Source: Raineyaceae bacterium
Lineage (GTDB): Bacteria; Bacteroidota; Bacteroidia; Cytophagales; Thermonemataceae
Direction: 5' to 3'
Assembly (NCBI GenBank): GCA_043771315.1
Contig: JAYVHJ010000474.1
Span: 1 to 28,937, forward strand
Length of the DNA: 28,937 nt
The notes under the pieces were generated by a model that saw nothing but the letters and a program-made list of their open reading frames with translations, ran no database searches and was not told where the DNA came from. Shown here piece by piece: positions 3,326-26,850 of the stretch (positions within the stretch are counted from its first letter, which is position 1; each line of letters begins with the position of its first letter). A program made the position numbers and the translations under genes.

Positions 3326-3374
3326 AATTCACAATTCACAATTCACAATTAAAAATTCACAATTAAAAATTATT
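3326..3374. repeat. Heptanucleotide tandem repeat array (AATTCAC)n, 7 units
   Basis: AATTCAC AATTCAC AATTCAC AATTAAA AATTCAC AATTAAA AATTATT. It overlaps the rpsP stop codon. Confidence 0.75.
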
Positions 3375-3912
3375 CTTCTGTTTTTGTAACTTCTTCTGTT
3401 GCAGGTGCATCAGCAATTACTTCTGCCACAGGCTCTGCAACTGGCTCAACGACAGGGGCATTTTTCTTAGCAATAGCAGCGGCACGGTCAGTAGATTTCT
3501 TAGTTTCTGCATCAAGACGAGCTTTAGCATCTTTTACTTTATTATCAGCCAAAGTATCTATTTTTCCAGAGATTTTAGCTTCTTTATTTTGTTTCCAAGC
3601 AGCAAATTTAGCATCAGCAACTTCTTGCGTGATAGCTCCTTTTCCTACACCAATTTGAAGATGTTTTCTGATAAGTACACCTCTATATGAAAGCATTGCT
3701 TTTACTGTGTCAGTAGGTTGTGCACCTTTCATTACCCAGCTAAACGCTTTTTCTTCATCAATATTGATGCTTGCAGGGTTGGTGTTTGGGTTGTAAGTGC
3801 CTATTTTCTCTATGAACCTACCATCACGTGGAGAGCGAGAGTCTGCAATGATAACATCATACATTGCTAATTTTTTACGTCCACGACGTGCTAATCTGAT
3901 TTTTACGGGCAT
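3370..3912 (-). CDS. rpsP: 30S ribosomal protein S16 with an Ala/Glu/Val-rich C-terminal extension
   Basis: N-terminus MPVKIRLARRGRKKLAMYDVIIADSRSPRDGRFIEKIGTYNP is canonical bS16. A ~90-aa low-complexity tail (VVEPVAEPVAEV) is typical of Bacteroidetes. Confidence 0.9.
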   Translation of the reverse strand: MPVKIRLARRGRKKLAMYDVIIADSRSPRDGRFIEKIGTYNPNTNPASINIDEEKAFSWVMKGAQPTDTVKAMLSYRGVLIRKHLQIGVGKGAITQEVADAKFAAWKQNKEAKISGKIDTLADNKVKDAKARLDAETKKSTDRAAAIAKKNAPVVEPVAEPVAEVIADAPATEEVTKTEE

Positions 3913-4130
3913 TGTTTTGCTTGGTTAAACTTTAAAAGTTTTGCGACAGAACTCGTCTGTCTTTTTCTACCTTAAATATTAAGGACTGCAAAGGTAATAC
4001 AATAATTTAGAATAAAAAATAAAAGTTTAAAAAGTTTTCCCTGTGATGCCCTGTTGAGAACTTCTACTCACAATAAACAATAATAGTTATCTTGGAAATG
4101 AAGATAATTCTAGTTTTATTGCGTAACAAA

Positions 4131-4196
4131 TATATAGAAAATACATTGTTTGACGAAGTGCGTTGTGGGTGTCGCTAACGCTAAAACAACCAACAA
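4131..4196. repeat. Left inverted repeat (~65 bp) bounding a 2.2-kb three-gene cassette
   Basis: 4131-4196 is ~90% identical to the reverse complement of 6267-6332. The shared core is GTGCGTTGTGGGTGTCGCTAAYGCTAAAACA. Confidence 0.65.
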
Positions 4197-4220
4197 TGGC
4201 AGAAATTAAAACCATAGAAT

Positions 4221-24181: not shown

Positions 24182-24190
24182 CTTTTTAGT

Positions 24191-24245
24191 TTTACATTCG
24201 TACTTCGTACTTCTCACTTCGTACCTCTTCCTACACTTCTTCTGC
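24191..24245. repeat. Tandem heptamer repeat (TCGTACT/TCTCACT), reverse-complement type of the 24095 array; overlaps the MVP stop codon
   Basis: ACATTCG TACTTCG TACTTCT CACTTCG TACCTCT TCCTACA CTTC. Confidence 0.6.
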
Positions 24246-26720
24246 TTTCACAATATCAGTACTGTCATTGTTGTTATCCAACACGTTTGCTAAAATTGTG
24301 CCTTGCAAAAGGTTTGAAAATACTTCTGCCACACTTTTCCCGCCCAAAATAGCCAACGGCGACATAGATTGTGCCACTTTCTCGGCAAGTGCTTTGTCTG
24401 CAAAAGATTGCAAAGCAGCCACCAAATTAGGTGAAACTGCGCCTGCTTTTGCTACAAGAGCATCTACTTCCGACTTCATACGCAAAAGTTCTTGGTCTAA
24501 GAATTGTTGTTGCAAAGCAATTTCTAATTCTTGCTTTTCTTTTCTGCGTGAAAGTTCTGCTTGGTTGATTTTATTAAGGTTTTCTTGGTCAATTACATCA
24601 GCATCAGACTTCTGGAATTTCACTGCTGTATCTGCTTGCACCACTGCCATAGAAAGCTCCAAATTCTTAATAACCTCTTCAGTACGTATTTCTAAGAGTT
24701 TTTTCTTGGTTTCAGCTTGTGAGTCGTTGATGCCCTGCACAATCATTTCTGATTCTTGCGTAAACTCCAATTTGCGTTTTTCTGTGGCTATACGCAGATT
24801 TTGCTTAATTACATCTTGTTGTGAGGCAATAAGAAGGCTTTCCATTCCCAAATCCATTAGTTTGATGTTTCCCAAAAATTCCACATCATAAATACGCATA
24901 CCATTTTCCTCAAAAAGTCTGCCTTTACGTTTACCTTCTGCATCAGGCAAACCCAAAATAGCATCTCTAATAAGTTCAATGCCATTATTGTAAAAATCCA
25001 TTATAGAGTGTTTCTTGGCAATATTTCGCACAAAAGAACGCATATGGTCAGTCAAGAATTTGACGTAATTTTCTACATCAAACCATTTCTCTGGCTCACC
25101 CTCAAAATTCACTCTATACGACAAATGCACGCTTACTTGCGTAAAATCCATTGACTCCGCCTGAATAATATCAGAAATTTTGTTGTACAAAACCCTCAAA
25201 TAAACGGTTTTGAGTGCATTATCAGCATTTTTTGGCGTTCCTGTGGAAAGTTCCATTGATTCCAATGTTTCATCATATTCCAAAAGATAGGTTTGAGGTC
25301 CAGAAACCACTTTTCTAGTGCCAGTTCTACTCACAATAAGCACCGCATAACCTGTATAAGGGCTGATGGTTACTGCGCCATCATACTTATTATCTAGTGT
25401 GATTGTACGTGGCGGCACATAATTACTATCACGAGCAAAATTATCTCCTGCAATTTTCTTAGAAACCTTTTGCTTCGCAATATTGCTAATGGAAGAAACA
25501 CTTTGTTCCTGCTGAATTTGTTGTACTTCATCAAGTTGGTTACTTTCAATATAATTACGGCTTTTGTCATTTTGCTGCAATTCCTGCAATTTTAGGTTAT
25601 ATTCCATTGCTTCTGTATTACCAGGAAACCACAAAGCAACTTGTTTTGCAGACAAAATACGTCTCACAATGACAAACTCACGAGGGTCGGGCAAAAACAT
25701 TGCAGCCCCTTTTTGAAGAGAAATAGTACCAGTTTTTCTATTCAAGAAATAACGTCCTTCACCAGGCGGAATGGCGGTTGCAAACTGTTTATCCTTGTTT
25801 CCATAACGTACAAGAGCATGTTCGGCACGAGGATAATAAATCATTTGGTCTTTTCCTGTAATAAAAAGCTCATCACCTTCTTTGTAACTACCTTTTGCAT
25901 CAGAGTAAGGCGCAATGACTTTAATATACAAGCCTGACATTTCGTTGAGTTCTACCGCTTTAAACTTGCGTGATTCATCTCTCATTACAAATTCTTCTGT
26001 TGGTTGTGGGAAAACCACCGCAGGACCTTGTATAAAGCGTTTGTTGCCATCTTCATCTAACAAAATGCAATATTCTAGCCTTTCTAGCGTGATAGCCTCA
26101 CGTACATACTCATCATTTTCGTCTGAAACTACTTCTACACCCGTAGGAGGGATATAAAAAGACACATCAGAACCTTTTATGAGAAGCATTGTTCCCATTG
26201 TGAGGTCGGGCATTTCTTCCAAATTAATTTCCGTATCTTCTTTTGTTTTGATGACGGCTTTTTTCCAGTTTTTGCGGGCTTCATCTTCATCATAAATGCG
26301 CACCAAAAGATATTCATTTGAGCGCAAATTATGTCCACGCAAAACCTTAATCATTTGCCCTGGCCACACAGCAAAATTCACAGGACCAGGAATGTTCACT
26401 TTGCGCCCTACCAGCAAATCAGTAAGGTTGTTGTTAGTGCCATTTTTTGGTTGCAAATTATCTTTTGCAGGGTTTTTCATTACAATATACCAACCTTCTG
26501 GGGCGGTAGTGAAGATGCAAACCGCTTCATCTAAGGTACATTTTTCAAACCTTTTGGTGTTATCTGCAAAAAGTACAGGTTTGTCTGTGTTTGCCAAACT
26601 TGTCTTGTACGGACCTACATAGACATTTATATTGCCTTTTGTCTGGTCTGAAATAAACGCATACTCATTGGGAGCGAGTACCAAATCACGTTCTCTATTG
26701 GTTTCTGACATATTTTCCAA
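24231..26720 (-). CDS. Major vault protein (MVP) homolog, bacterial
   Basis: 829 aa, alignable to eukaryotic MVP over its whole length. N-terminal repeat 1 LAPNEYAFISDQTKGNINVYVGPYKTSLANTDKPVLFA matches [39 protein letters not shown]. Repeat motif SFYIPPTGVEVV matches GTYIPRKEVEVVE. Cap-helix coiled coil KKKLLEIRTEEVIKNLELSMAVVQADTAVKFQKS matches [28 protein letters not shown]. Confidence 0.85.
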   Translation of the reverse strand: MENMSETNRERDLVLAPNEYAFISDQTKGNINVYVGPYKTSLANTDKPVLFADNTKRFEKCTLDEAVCIFTTAPEGWYIVMKNPAKDNLQPKNGTNNNLTDLLVGRKVNIPGPVNFAVWPGQMIKVLRGHNLRSNEYLLVRIYDEDEARKNWKKAVIKTKEDTEINLEEMPDLTMGTMLLIKGSDVSFYIPPTGVEVVSDENDEYVREAITLERLEYCILLDEDGNKRFIQGPAVVFPQPTEEFVMRDESRKFKAVELNEMSGLYIKVIAPYSDAKGSYKEGDELFITGKDQMIYYPRAEHALVRYGNKDKQFATAIPPGEGRYFLNRKTGTISLQKGAAMFLPDPREFVIVRRILSAKQVALWFPGNTEAMEYNLKLQELQQNDKSRNYIESNQLDEVQQIQQEQSVSSISNIAKQKVSKKIAGDNFARDSNYVPPRTITLDNKYDGAVTISPYTGYAVLIVSRTGTRKVVSGPQTYLLEYDETLESMELSTGTPKNADNALKTVYLRVLYNKISDIIQAESMDFTQVSVHLSYRVNFEGEPEKWFDVENYVKFLTDHMRSFVRNIAKKHSIMDFYNNGIELIRDAILGLPDAEGKRKGRLFEENGMRIYDVEFLGNIKLMDLGMESLLIASQQDVIKQNLRIATEKRKLEFTQESEMIVQGINDSQAETKKKLLEIRTEEVIKNLELSMAVVQADTAVKFQKSDADVIDQENLNKINQAELSRRKEKQELEIALQQQFLDQELLRMKSEVDALVAKAGAVSPNLVAALQSFADKALAEKVAQSMSPLAILGGKSVAEVFSNLLQGTILANVLDNNNDSTDIVKAEEV

Positions 26721-26802
26721 TTGTTTTTAGGATTAGGAGATAAGTAATAATAATAGCAAAAAATTACTTTCAAATCTAAAAAAAACTATCCAAAAAACCT
26801 AA

Positions 26803-26850
26803 GTAATTGTAAATTTTAAATTGTGAATTAACAACTGCTAGTGTGAACTG
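26803..26850. repeat. Heptanucleotide repeat (AATTGTG family), ~50-85 nt upstream of the MVP start on its coding strand
   Basis: TAATTGT AAATTTT AAATTGT GAATTAA CAACTGC TAGTGTG AACTGCT. It lies in the divergent MVP / nuclease-island intergenic region. Confidence 0.55.

What the first reader, a model, noticed from the sequence alone, without database searches (positions are those of the whole stretch)
3326..26850. Dispersed heptanucleotide tandem repeats (AATTCAC)n placed immediately 5' of start codons
Arrays of 4-7 units with strict 7-nt periodicity were found at the following sites. AATTCAC/ATTCACA arrays: 3326-3374 (across the rpsP stop codon), 11541-11568, 18561-18595. Complementary AATTGTG-type arrays: 16641-16668, 26803-26850. 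Variants: 3159-3200 (GAGTTAT), 11111-11138 (AATTACG), 19515-19544 (GTGAGTT), 24095-24245 (AGTGAGT, in inverted pairs). In at least five cases the array reads CACAATT/AATTCAC on the coding strand and ends 3-40 nt before the start codon: rimM, hutG, the RNase E/G gene, rsfS and MVP. This lineage does not use Shine-Dalgarno pairing, so an unstructured CA/AU-rich periodic leader could act as a translation-initiation enhancer or a protein-binding platform. The inverted pairs around terminators suggest it also builds extended stem structures. I am not aware of a described element of this exact form.
Basis: seen in the sequence. Interest (0 to 1): 0.6.

Follow-up and report, generated by a model that had tools for sequence, protein, structure and literature searches.

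The report
Seven-base repeat arrays hugging gene ends
An uncultured Cytophagales bacterium has filled about a third of the gaps between its genes here with short runs of a 7-base repeat that sit tight against start and stop codons in a fixed orientation, a real and striking pattern of a repeat type already described in cyanobacteria, Xanthomonas, Beggiatoa and Flexibacter, whose function is still unproven.

Summary
The period-7 arrays are real. The window has 7 strong and about 4 weaker arrays, none of any other period, and all are intergenic. Only about half lie 5' of start codons: rimM, rng, hutG and rsfS at 2-30 nt, and MVP at about 92 nt. The rest begin at or just after stop codons in the opposite orientation.

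One rule fits all of them. The G-free strand (AAYTCAY) reads 5'->3' into the adjacent CDS. Leaders are therefore G-free and 3' UTR arrays are G/U-rich. This held 8/8 in a related 20-kb contig and in independent low-GC genomes (27:7 and 37:9).

Most arrays carry a conserved distal TGTATT "cap". Some form inverted pairs that fold the whole spacer into a hairpin.

Relatives at about 92% DNA identity gain or lose arrays, or change them by multiples of 7. Relatives with 68-69% identical RNase G have none.

The class and its orientation rule are already published (TAACTGA repeats; GGGAATC/GGGGAYT repeats; long simple-sequence repeats).

Best reading: these are slippage-born heptamer microsatellites, kept only where and in the orientation that SD-less translation signals tolerate. 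At 5' ends they are the unstructured leader. A dedicated enhancer role is unproven.

This is a new member of a known kind, of moderate interest.

The parts
3160..3200 (-). Array A. The 5' leader array of rimM. It reads CACAATT TATAACT CATAACT TATAACT CACAACT on the coding strand and ends 2 nt before ATG 3157. It has no TGTATT cap.
   Evidence: absent in relative L073
3228..3277 (-). Hairpin followed by a T-run (intrinsic-terminator-like) between arrays B and A.
   Evidence: conserved in L073
3319..3372 (-). Array B. The 3' array of rpsP. On the coding strand the stop TAA runs straight into (AATTTTT/AATTGTG)n and then AAATACA, the reverse complement of the cap. On the + strand it reads TGTATTT + (AATTCAC)n.
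   Evidence: two units (14 nt) shorter in L073
11111..11140 (+). Array C. (AATTACG)4 starting inside the stop codon of the TPR gene. G equals C, so its orientation is compositionally neutral. The same unit follows a stop in L179 (4629-4660).
11534..11574 (+). Array D. Cap TGTATTC + (ATTCACA)4. It is the 5' leader array of the RNase G gene, 29 nt before TTG 11604.
   Evidence: same length in 4 strains with C/T unit changes
16641..16676 (-). Array E. Cap TGTATTC + ATTCAC AATTTAC AATTCAC AATTA. It fills the 49-nt spacer between the GPP34-like gene and hutG and ends 5 nt before ATG 16635.
   Evidence: locus differs in L181/L182
17504..17535 (-). Degenerate array AATTAAA AATTCAT AATTAAA AAACA directly 5' of ATG 17500 of the GPP34-like gene.
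   Evidence: D7
18553..18595 (+). Array F. Cap TGTATTT + AATTCAC AATTCAC AATTTAC AATTCAC AATTAT. It is the 5' leader array of rsfS, 10 nt before ATG 18606.
   Evidence: kept in 5 relatives
19515..19550 (+). Array G. GTGAGTT GTAAGTT ATGAATT GTGAGTT + AATACA (cap on the - strand). It is a 3' array beginning 11 nt after the stop of the small ORF 19364-19504 and lies upstream of a terminator-like hairpin near 19610-19665.
   Evidence: 4 units in L181, about 7 in L179
19713..19754 (+). The cmk leader: cap TGTATTT followed by an eroded, CA-rich, array-like stretch.
24100..24145 (+). Array H1. (TAGTGAG)n starting with the stop TAG of the MarC-family gene. The cap TGTATT is on the - strand at 24140-24135.
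24152..24187 (.). Bidirectional terminator hairpin between H1 and H2.
24197..24228 (-). Array H2. GTACGAA GTGAGAA GTACGAA GTACGAA on the coding strand, just after the stop (TAG 24233-24231) of the MVP-like gene.
   Evidence: conserved in L181; same unit after another gene's stop in L179
26803..26830 (-). Array I. AATTCAC AATTTAA AATTTAC AATTA on the MVP coding strand, about 92 nt 5' of ATG 26711. It probably lies upstream of, or at, the promoter rather than in the leader.
   Evidence: same position with a full cap in L181

Best explanation
These are dispersed heptanucleotide simple-sequence-repeat arrays of the already described bacterial class, here in a lineage-specific family.

Anatomy (shown): a distal cap TGTATT, then 3-7 units of AAYTYAY, then the CDS end.

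Origin (inferred):
- Arrays arise and change length by replication slippage in 7-nt steps.
- Inverted pairs arise by inverted duplication or template switching around spacer hairpins.
- Arrays are purged from coding DNA because 7 is not a multiple of 3.

Where they survive (placement and orientation shown; the cause inferred): only in the transcribed spacers between promoter and start codon, or between stop codon and terminator, and only in one orientation. Next to a start codon the sense strand is the G-free one. That strand has no ATG/GTG/TTG and no G-C pairing, and it is A/C/U-rich. This matches what SD-independent Bacteroidota initiation regions look like anyway. There the array simply is the unstructured leader on which the 30S subunit lands. 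Next to a stop codon the sense strand is the G/U-rich complement, and the array often supplies the stop codon itself.

Net effect on expression (inferred): permissive or mildly tuning, not an indispensable enhancer.
For: - Strict period 7 only.
- All arrays are intergenic and lie flush to CDS ends (window p = 7e-5; related contig L179 p = 5e-6).
- Orientation rule: about 9 unambiguous cases in the window and its extension, and 8/8 in L179, which has independent gene calls.
- The rule replicates in unrelated genomes below 50% GC. Start-flush arrays have sense G<C in 27 against 7 (p = 8e-4). Stop-flush arrays have G>C in 37 against 9 (p = 4e-5). AATTCAC arrays point into the nearest CDS in 29 against 9 (p = 0.002).
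- Leaders without arrays are already G 7% / A 47%. Initiation regions are weakly structured, and inverting the upstream 50 nt roughly doubles predicted structure.
- Microsatellite-like dynamics: a 14-nt (2-unit) indel in array B, loss of array A, presence or absence of the birA, cmk-3' and small-ORF arrays, 4 versus about 7 units in G, and the same T-to-C change in three adjacent units of D.
- No arrays in 14-21 kb of relatives with 68-69% identical RNase G.
- 308 period-7 arrays against at most 25 of any other period in 847 kb from 119 other genomes.
- The exact unit is only about 2x commoner than composition-matched control heptamers in viral contigs (24 against 11 and 14). Flanks in other phyla are unrelated. 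These point to independent origins.
- Literature: heptamers are the most abundant long-SSR class, with a polymerase-slippage proposal (Mrazek 2007 as summarised in PMC4679880). The same distance and strand rule, including overlap with stop codons and inverted pairs, is reported in Xanthomonas and Nostoc (PMC4692102). AUG depletion and low structure near Bacteroidetes start codons are reported in PMC6847099.
Against: - One unit family dominates the genome, and a conserved TGTATT cap sits at the distal end of most arrays (13 of 18 against about 0.2 expected). Purely local, independent slippage does not predict either. They point to dispersal of a module or to a sequence-specific reader.
- The rng and rsfS arrays keep the same unit number in 4-5 strains while their units change only by C/T transitions. 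That could mean constraint on length and on G-freeness.
- The G-rich orientation of 3' arrays is only partly explained. GTACGAA and AATTACG units contain no stop codon.
- In Bacteroidales loci of 50-58% GC the orientation looked reversed, although my ORF calls there are unreliable.
- No expression data of any kind were available.
Confidence: 0.55

Rival explanations
1. The arrays are platforms for a single-strand RNA-binding protein read in 7-nt register. Candidates are cold-shock-domain proteins (about one domain per 6-7 nt), ribosomal protein S1 or RRM-type chaperones. The array would recruit or exclude the 30S subunit. This is the reader's 'protein-binding platform' and MacGregor's proposal for TAACTGA.
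For: - One dominant unit family per genome, with conserved A/T positions (AAYTYAY) and only C/T changes between strains.
- Stable unit number at rng and rsfS.
- A conserved cap.
- Heptad binding by CspB and the S1/Csp/CsrA proposal are cited in PMC4679880.
Against: - Arrays are gained and lost in front of housekeeping genes between close relatives and are absent in the next relatives.
- The 3' arrays present the complementary sequence on the RNA.
- C/T transitions are also the commonest neutral mutations.
- No protein was identified here.
Confidence: 0.17
2. The function lies in RNA-RNA pairing between complementary arrays. In cis, a stop-proximal G/U-rich array and a start-proximal C/A-rich array zip the whole spacer into a hairpin, giving attenuation, RNase III processing, protection or coupling of neighbouring genes. 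In trans, 3'-UTR arrays carried next to a terminator act like sRNA seeds against array-bearing leaders.
For: - Arrays A and B pair around the terminator (z = -4.9). The H1/H2 region folds with z = -5.8 and -4.9.
- In L179 a 99-nt spacer between two co-directional genes is one near-perfect hairpin of about 29 bp running from just after the stop codon to about 13 nt before the start codon (z = -9.3).
- 27 inverted against 15 direct neighbouring pairs of like heptamer arrays, with many different units, in other genomes.
- Predicted duplexes of the rpsP and small-ORF 3' arrays with array-bearing leaders are -25 to -50 kcal/mol, against -9 to -18 for control leaders.
Against: - Most arrays are solo.
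- The A partner of the A/B pair is absent in a relative at about 92% identity while B and the terminator are kept, so that stem is not conserved.
- Mirror-image arms are equally expected from inverted duplication without selection.
- Trans pairing is only a consequence of complementarity and was not observed.
Confidence: 0.12
3. Cap plus array is a DNA-level module that is copied around the genome, or marks a promoter or protein-binding site. Comparable cases are heptad TTTTGAT repeats in the cholera-toxin promoter and SARP heptamer sites. Arrays would then act on transcription.
For: - The same TGTATT cap occurs on arrays of different unit families and in both 5' and 3' contexts.
- TGTATT lies in sense orientation at -36 to -108 of 21 of 59 genes.
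- Array I lies about 92 nt upstream of MVP, outside a short leader.
- Known DNA-binding heptad arrays appear in the literature search.
Against: - No -33/-7 Bacteroidetes promoter signal is aligned to the cap.
- At 3' ends the cap would drive antisense transcription.
- No conserved internal sequence was found, and no terminal inverted repeats beyond the arrays themselves.
- Most arrays abut the start or stop codon, where they must be transcribed.
Confidence: 0.1
4. The arrays are contingency loci. Frequent copy-number slippage would switch or tune expression (phase variation), as with the heptanucleotide tracts of Haemophilus hmw1A or E. coli neuO.
For: Length changes in multiples of 7 exist (14 nt in B; 4 versus about 7 units in G).
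Against: - The rng and rsfS arrays have the same unit number in 4-5 strains.
- The genes involved are housekeeping genes (rimM, rng, rsfS, birA, cmk), not surface or virulence genes.
- Arrays are short (3-7 units), and half are 3' of genes.
Confidence: 0.04

Closest known systems
G-rich heptameric intergenic repeats GGGAATC (Xanthomonas) and GGGGA(C/T)T (Nostoc PCC 7120), PMC4692102
   Same: - Tandem 7-nt units dispersed over the genome and about 90% intergenic.
- They lie within 50 bp of ORF ends. The G-rich strand is the antisense strand upstream of ORFs and the sense strand after stop codons, including overlap with the stop codon.
- Inverted pairs occur, and most arrays are transcribed.
- This is the same placement and orientation rule that I measured here.
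   Different: - Those units carry G3-G4 runs, form quadruplexes in vitro and were interpreted through G4 biology. The units here (GTGAATT and the like) cannot form G4, so the rule does not depend on G4.
- The phylum differs (SD-less Bacteroidota).
- No cap was reported there.
TAACTGA direct repeats of marine Beggiatoaceae, cyanobacteria and five Bacteroidetes, PMC4679880
   Same: - 2-6 tandem heptamers, mostly within a few nt upstream of start codons in 'forward' orientation, replacing an SD, in front of unrelated and often essential genes.
- In Flexibacter litoralis (Cytophagales) 12 of 14 sets lie 1-43 nt 5' of a start, and one set lies right after a stop in reverse orientation.
- Indels between strains occur in 7-nt steps.
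   Different: - The unit differs. There are no TAACTGA doublets in the window, L179 or L120.
- TAACTGA has one G and one C and carries stop codons in the forward orientation. AAYTCAY is G-free and stop-free.
- Density here is much higher: about 10 arrays per 20-29 kb, against 169 sets per genome.
- 3' arrays are abundant here.
Long simple sequence repeats of 5-11 nt (Mrazek et al. 2007) and cyanobacterial STRR heptamers (Calothrix/Nostoc)
   Same: Heptanucleotides are the predominant long-SSR class in the genomes that have them. Their distribution across phyla is sporadic. Polymerase slippage has been proposed as the origin (as summarised in PMC4679880, and PMC4692102).
   Different: Those are surveys without the CDS-flush anatomy. 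I could not read the original paper.
Heptamer repeats upstream of recF/recO in Nostoc PCC 7120, bioRxiv 10.1101/2022.06.06.494920
   Same: Contiguous heptamers within 30-100 nt of start codons of many genes, some overlapping the start codon. Reporter deletions gave modest (about 2-fold) context-dependent effects.
   Different: The units differ (TTCAAAA, GACYAAT). The organism uses SD sequences. The effects were attributed partly to transcription-factor access.

Membership tests
Bacterial heptanucleotide long-SSR arrays (LSSR / STRR / GGGAATC / TAACTGA class) | Head-to-tail units of exactly 7 nt, at least 3 copies, with no comparable arrays of neighbouring periods | tested here: met
   (7 arrays of period 7; 0 of periods 4-6 and 8-11)
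Bacterial heptanucleotide long-SSR arrays (LSSR / STRR / GGGAATC / TAACTGA class) | The same or similar unit dispersed at many loci of one genome, nearly all intergenic | tested here: met
   10 of 10 window arrays lie in the 16% of the window that is intergenic. The AAYTCAY family occurs at 8 or more window loci and 6 or more L179 loci.
Bacterial heptanucleotide long-SSR arrays (LSSR / STRR / GGGAATC / TAACTGA class) | Placement within about 50 nt of ORF ends, with the G-poor strand as sense upstream of starts and the G-rich strand as sense after stops (PMC4692102) | tested here: met
Bacterial heptanucleotide long-SSR arrays (LSSR / STRR / GGGAATC / TAACTGA class) | Length differences between strains in multiples of 7 nt | tested here: met
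   14-nt indel in array B; 4 versus about 7 units in array G. The birA array difference is 22 nt in the alignment, so it is not a clean multiple.
TAACTGA repeat family (MacGregor 2015) | Unit sequence TAACTGA in tandem | tested here: not met
   0 doublets in the window, L179 and L120. The closest units are CATAACT/TATAACT in array A.
TAACTGA repeat family (MacGregor 2015) | Forward orientation within about 40 nt upstream of start codons, replacing an SD | tested here: met
   rimM, hutG, rsfS, rng and the AcrB-like gene
G-quadruplex-forming heptamer repeats | Runs of at least 3 G in each unit | tested here: not met
   Units are GTGAATT, GTGAGTT, TAGTGAG and GTACGAA.
Phase-variable contingency SSR | Hypervariable copy number between close strains, and association with surface or virulence genes | tested here: not met
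   The rng and rsfS arrays have constant length in 4-5 strains. The genes are housekeeping genes.
MITE / REP-type mobile intergenic elements | A conserved internal sequence with terminal inverted repeats and target-site duplication, or a REP hairpin consensus | tested here: not met
   Only the arrays and the cap recur. The sequences between paired arrays are unrelated.
Transcription-factor heptad sites (ctxAB TTTTGAT, SARP repeats) | Position at or upstream of the -35 region, and binding by a cognate regulator | not testable with these tools
   Most arrays abut the start or stop codon. Only array I (about -92) could fit. No binding data exist.

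The most novel reading that the evidence does not exclude
The cap-plus-heptad modules are not passive microsatellites. They would be a genome-wide UTR code of this lineage. A dedicated single-strand-binding factor, or array-array RNA pairing, would read (AAUUCAC)n leaders and their complementary (GUGAAUU)n 3' UTRs. 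This would link the ends of hundreds of mRNAs, or let 3'-UTR fragments titrate leaders, so as to set translation in an organism that cannot use Shine-Dalgarno pairing. The TGTATT cap would be the processing or entry site.
Probability: 0.1. Interest if true: 0.75.

Novelty: new member of a known kind. Interest (0 to 1): 0.38.

Why it matters
Heptamer arrays next to start and stop codons have been noted in cyanobacteria, Xanthomonas, Beggiatoaceae and a few Bacteroidetes for decades, and their function remains unresolved. This lineage adds three things.

- An extreme density, with arrays in about one spacer in three.
- A unit that cannot form G-quadruplexes, in a phylum that does not use Shine-Dalgarno pairing. 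It obeys the same strand and distance rule, which argues that the rule comes from general translation or UTR constraints rather than from G4 structures.
- Two sharper handles for experiments. One is a conserved TGTATT cap. The other is natural presence or absence of arrays in front of the same housekeeping genes in close relatives.

If the arrays turned out to be read by a factor or to pair with each other, that would be a new layer of post-transcriptional control in SD-less bacteria. If not, they are a clean example of how selection on translation signals shapes where microsatellites can live in a compact genome.

Tried and rejected
- Rfam at gathering thresholds and a tRNA scan found nothing in the window.
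- The sigma-70 promoter scan is uninformative in this AT-rich Bacteroidota DNA (74 found against 71 expected). A hand and PWM search for the Bacteroidetes TTG/TAnnTTTG promoter around the cap gave no signal.
- The wide phyletic spread of exact (AATTCAC)3 (more than 119 loci in many phyla) first looked like a special conserved element. I rejected that. Composition-matched control heptamers are nearly as common in viral contigs, and flanks are unrelated across phyla.
- 'All 3' arrays provide stop codons in three frames' was rejected, because GTACGAA and AATTACG units contain no stop codon.
- My first ORF-based orientation test treated masked arrays as stops and produced an artefactual 'tail-stop' excess. 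I redid it with real stop codons. Calls for genomes of 50% GC or more remain unreliable, and there the direction was not reproduced.
- Exact-protein look-up of S16 found no record. The Mrazek 2007 paper is not held. One search was an empty script.
- Phase variation and MITE/REP readings were considered and rejected (see the membership tests).

Full report
**What is there.** The window is AT-rich (about 33% GC) Bacteroidota DNA. It carries a T9SS sorting tail and a Bacteroidetes-type ECF sigma factor. Its RNase G is at best 64-71% identical to named or binned Cytophagales such as Rhodocytophaga, Thermonema, Eisenibacter and Microscillaceae. The source is a metagenome assembly; contigs L120 and L121 are identical to the window.

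There are 7 strong arrays of period 7, none of periods 4-6 or 8-11, and 0.02 expected in shuffles. (AATTCAC)2 with up to 2 mismatches occurs 18 times against 0.67 expected. Small corrections are needed. The array near 26803 ends at 26830. It lies about 92 nt, not 40 nt or less, from the MVP start codon. The array at 19515-19545 is degenerate.

**Anatomy.** I mapped the arrays on the genes. They fall into two sets.
- *5' arrays.* These read AAYTCAY on the coding strand and end 2 nt (rimM), 5 nt (hutG), 10 nt (rsfS) or 29 nt (rng) before the start codon. One more lies just outside the window, 2 nt before an AcrB-like gene. A degenerate one precedes the GPP34-like gene.
- *3' arrays.* These begin in or within 11 nt of a stop codon: rpsP, the TPR gene, a small ORF, the MarC gene and the MVP gene. 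On the coding strand they read the complementary type (GTGAATT, GTGAGTT, TAGTGAG, GTACGAA). At least four of them are followed by a terminator-like hairpin.

All 10 window arrays lie in the 16% of the window that is intergenic. They are much closer to CDS ends than uniform placement within their spacer predicts (p = 7e-5).

**One rule.** The strand of the array that lacks G, read 5'->3', points into the adjacent CDS. Spacers are therefore bracketed as CDS | G-rich array ... C-rich array | CDS on either DNA strand, whatever the gene orientation. Examples are A/B, H1/H2, and the birA/rsfS spacer in relatives.

I tested the rule on independent data.
- A related 20-kb contig (L179, 32.6% GC, gene calls from the source) has about 10 arrays. 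Of those, 8 of 8 compositionally asymmetric arrays obey the rule, and they are flush to CDS ends (p = 5e-6).
- In 119 loci from other genomes found through exact (AATTCAC)3, period-7 arrays of many different units are abundant: 308, against at most 25 for any other period.
- In the loci below 50% GC, where simple ORF calls are trustworthy, start-flush arrays have sense G<C in 27 against 7. Stop-flush arrays have sense G>C in 37 against 9. AATTCAC arrays point into the nearest CDS in 29 against 9.
- In loci of 50-58% GC the direction was not reproduced, but my gene calls there are poor.

**A cap and hairpins.** Aligning the arrays on their G-free strand shows a conserved distal flank, TGTATT, often as TTTTGTATTYA. 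It occurs on 6 of 9 window arrays and 7 of 9 L179 arrays, for different unit families and in both 5' and 3' contexts. The chance expectation is about 0.01 per array. The cap is absent from AATTCAC arrays of other phyla (1 of 120, and that one, L073, belongs to this lineage). I found no promoter signal aligned to it. It also precedes several eroded, CA-rich leaders. It remains unexplained.

Neighbouring arrays of complementary type fold together.
- A and B pair around the rpsP terminator (z = -4.9).
- The H1-terminator-H2 region folds with z = -5.8 and -4.9 on the two strands.
- In L179 a whole 99-nt spacer between two co-directional genes is a near-perfect hairpin of about 29 bp, running from just after the stop codon to about 13 nt before the next start codon (z = -9.3).

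Inverted pairs of like heptamer arrays, with arbitrary units, are also common in other phyla (27 inverted against 15 direct).

**Evolutionary behaviour.**
- Relatives with 68-69% identical RNase G, which keep the HU-TPR-rng gene order, have no period-7 arrays in 14-21 kb.
- The rng array keeps its length in four strains, but its units differ by C/T transitions. In one strain the same T-to-C change appears in three adjacent units.
- The rsfS array is kept in five strains.
- Array B is two units (14 nt) shorter in a relative at about 92% DNA identity, and array A is absent there.
- A four-unit array 5' of birA exists in L128, L129 and L179 but not in the window or L181.
- Array G has 4 or about 7 units.

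This is microsatellite-like turnover on a background of fixed position and orientation. It is not deep conservation, and it is not hypervariability.

**How it most likely works.** In this organism, leaders of genes without arrays are already G 7% and A 47%. Initiation regions are weakly structured: -5.5 kcal/mol on average against -11 for random 80-mers. Array-bearing regions are 0 to -7. Published work on Flavobacterium shows that initiation is tuned by low structure and upstream A residues, and that AUG is depleted near start codons (PMC6847099).

The G-free orientation of the unit contains no ATG, GTG or TTG and cannot form G-C pairs. Inverting the upstream 50 nt raises predicted structure. 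The 5' arrays are therefore compatible with, and in practice are, the SD-less ribosome landing region. However, shuffles of the same composition are equally unstructured, and arrays come and go in front of housekeeping genes. Nothing shows that periodicity itself enhances translation.

My best explanation (confidence about 0.55) is this. The arrays are slippage-born heptamer SSRs, with inverted duplication creating the pairs. They are excluded from CDS because 7 is not a multiple of 3. Selection on translation and UTR signals then filters them for position and orientation.

The dominance of one unit family, the cap, and the stable lengths at rng and rsfS keep three rivals alive:
- a heptad-reading RNA-binding protein (0.17);
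- cis or trans array-array RNA pairing (0.12; predicted duplexes of -25 to -50 kcal/mol);
- a DNA-level cap-array module (0.10).

Phase variation is unlikely (0.04).

**Comparison with what is known.**
- MacGregor 2015 (PMC4679880) described TAACTGA heptamer repeats flush 5' of start codons in Beggiatoaceae, cyanobacteria and five Bacteroidetes. In the Cytophagales Flexibacter litoralis, 12 of 14 sets lie 1-43 nt 5' of a start codon, and one reverse-oriented set follows a stop codon.
- Rehm and colleagues (PMC4692102) described GGGAATC and GGGGAYT heptamer arrays in Xanthomonas and Nostoc. They report exactly the strand and distance rule measured here, including overlap with stop codons and inverted pairs.
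- Heptamers were already known as the dominant long-SSR class (Mrazek 2007, as cited).
- A Nostoc preprint reports modest reporter effects of such repeats.

Three things differ here: the unit (no TAACTGA doublets; no G-runs, so no G4), the very high density, and the lineage-specific cap. The exact unit is not special across biology. Composition-matched control heptamers are about half as frequent in viral contigs (24 against 11 and 14).

**Verdict.** The pattern is real, statistically solid and partly mis-described: half of the arrays are 3' arrays. It is a new member of a known kind. Interest is moderate. It extends a published orientation rule to an SD-less phylum and to non-G4 units, adds a cap motif, and offers natural presence/absence variants for testing. 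No new mechanism is demonstrated.

Noticed in passing
window 11255-11344 (+): A 29-codon, extremely basic ORF (MPCGKKRKRHKIATHKRKKRLRKNRHKKK) lies between the TPR gene and rng. It is conserved almost letter for letter at the same place in relatives whose RNase G is 68-69% identical (L122, L124). It has no Pfam hit. It may be a small ribosome- or RNA-associated protein.
   Followed up: partly
window 13204-13240 and 15569-15605: Near-identical bidirectional terminator hairpins (95%) bracket the RPE65/carotenoid-oxygenase-like gene 13338-15557. That gene is missing in relatives L181/L182, where rng is followed directly by hutG. This looks like a gene insertion with a duplicated terminator.
   Followed up: partly
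window 4141-4188 and 6273-6320: A 48-nt inverted repeat (94% complementary) brackets a 2-kb segment holding a hypothetical gene, an ice-binding-like protein gene and another hypothetical gene. It may be an invertible or mobile cassette.
   Followed up: no
window 297-420 and 819-943: A direct repeat of about 100-124 nt (93%) duplicates the 3' end of lysS and its downstream flank.
   Followed up: no
window 24231-26711 (-): A bacterial homologue of the eukaryotic major vault protein (MVP_shoulder and Vault_3 domains, 826 aa). It is conserved in relative L181.
   Followed up: partly
window 1-17: The first 17 bases of the window differ from contig L120, which is otherwise identical over 10.2 kb. 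This is probably an assembly-end artefact.
   Followed up: partly
L179 2526-2636: The whole spacer between two co-directional genes is an inverted pair of (TAGTGWG)n and (CACTAYW)n arrays. It folds into a hairpin of about 29 bp (-44 kcal/mol, z = -9.3) running from just after the stop codon to about 13 nt before the next start codon.
   Followed up: yes
L179 20386-20393 (contig continues): A reverse-transcriptase (RVT_1) gene begins at the end of the fetched stretch of the related genome. No link to the arrays was examined.
   Followed up: no
window + L179 + L120, upstream regions: TGTATT occurs in sense orientation at -36 to -108 of 21 of 59 genes, and never closer than -36. Its reverse complement occurs upstream of 12 genes. 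It may be a lineage-specific upstream element independent of the arrays.
   Followed up: partly
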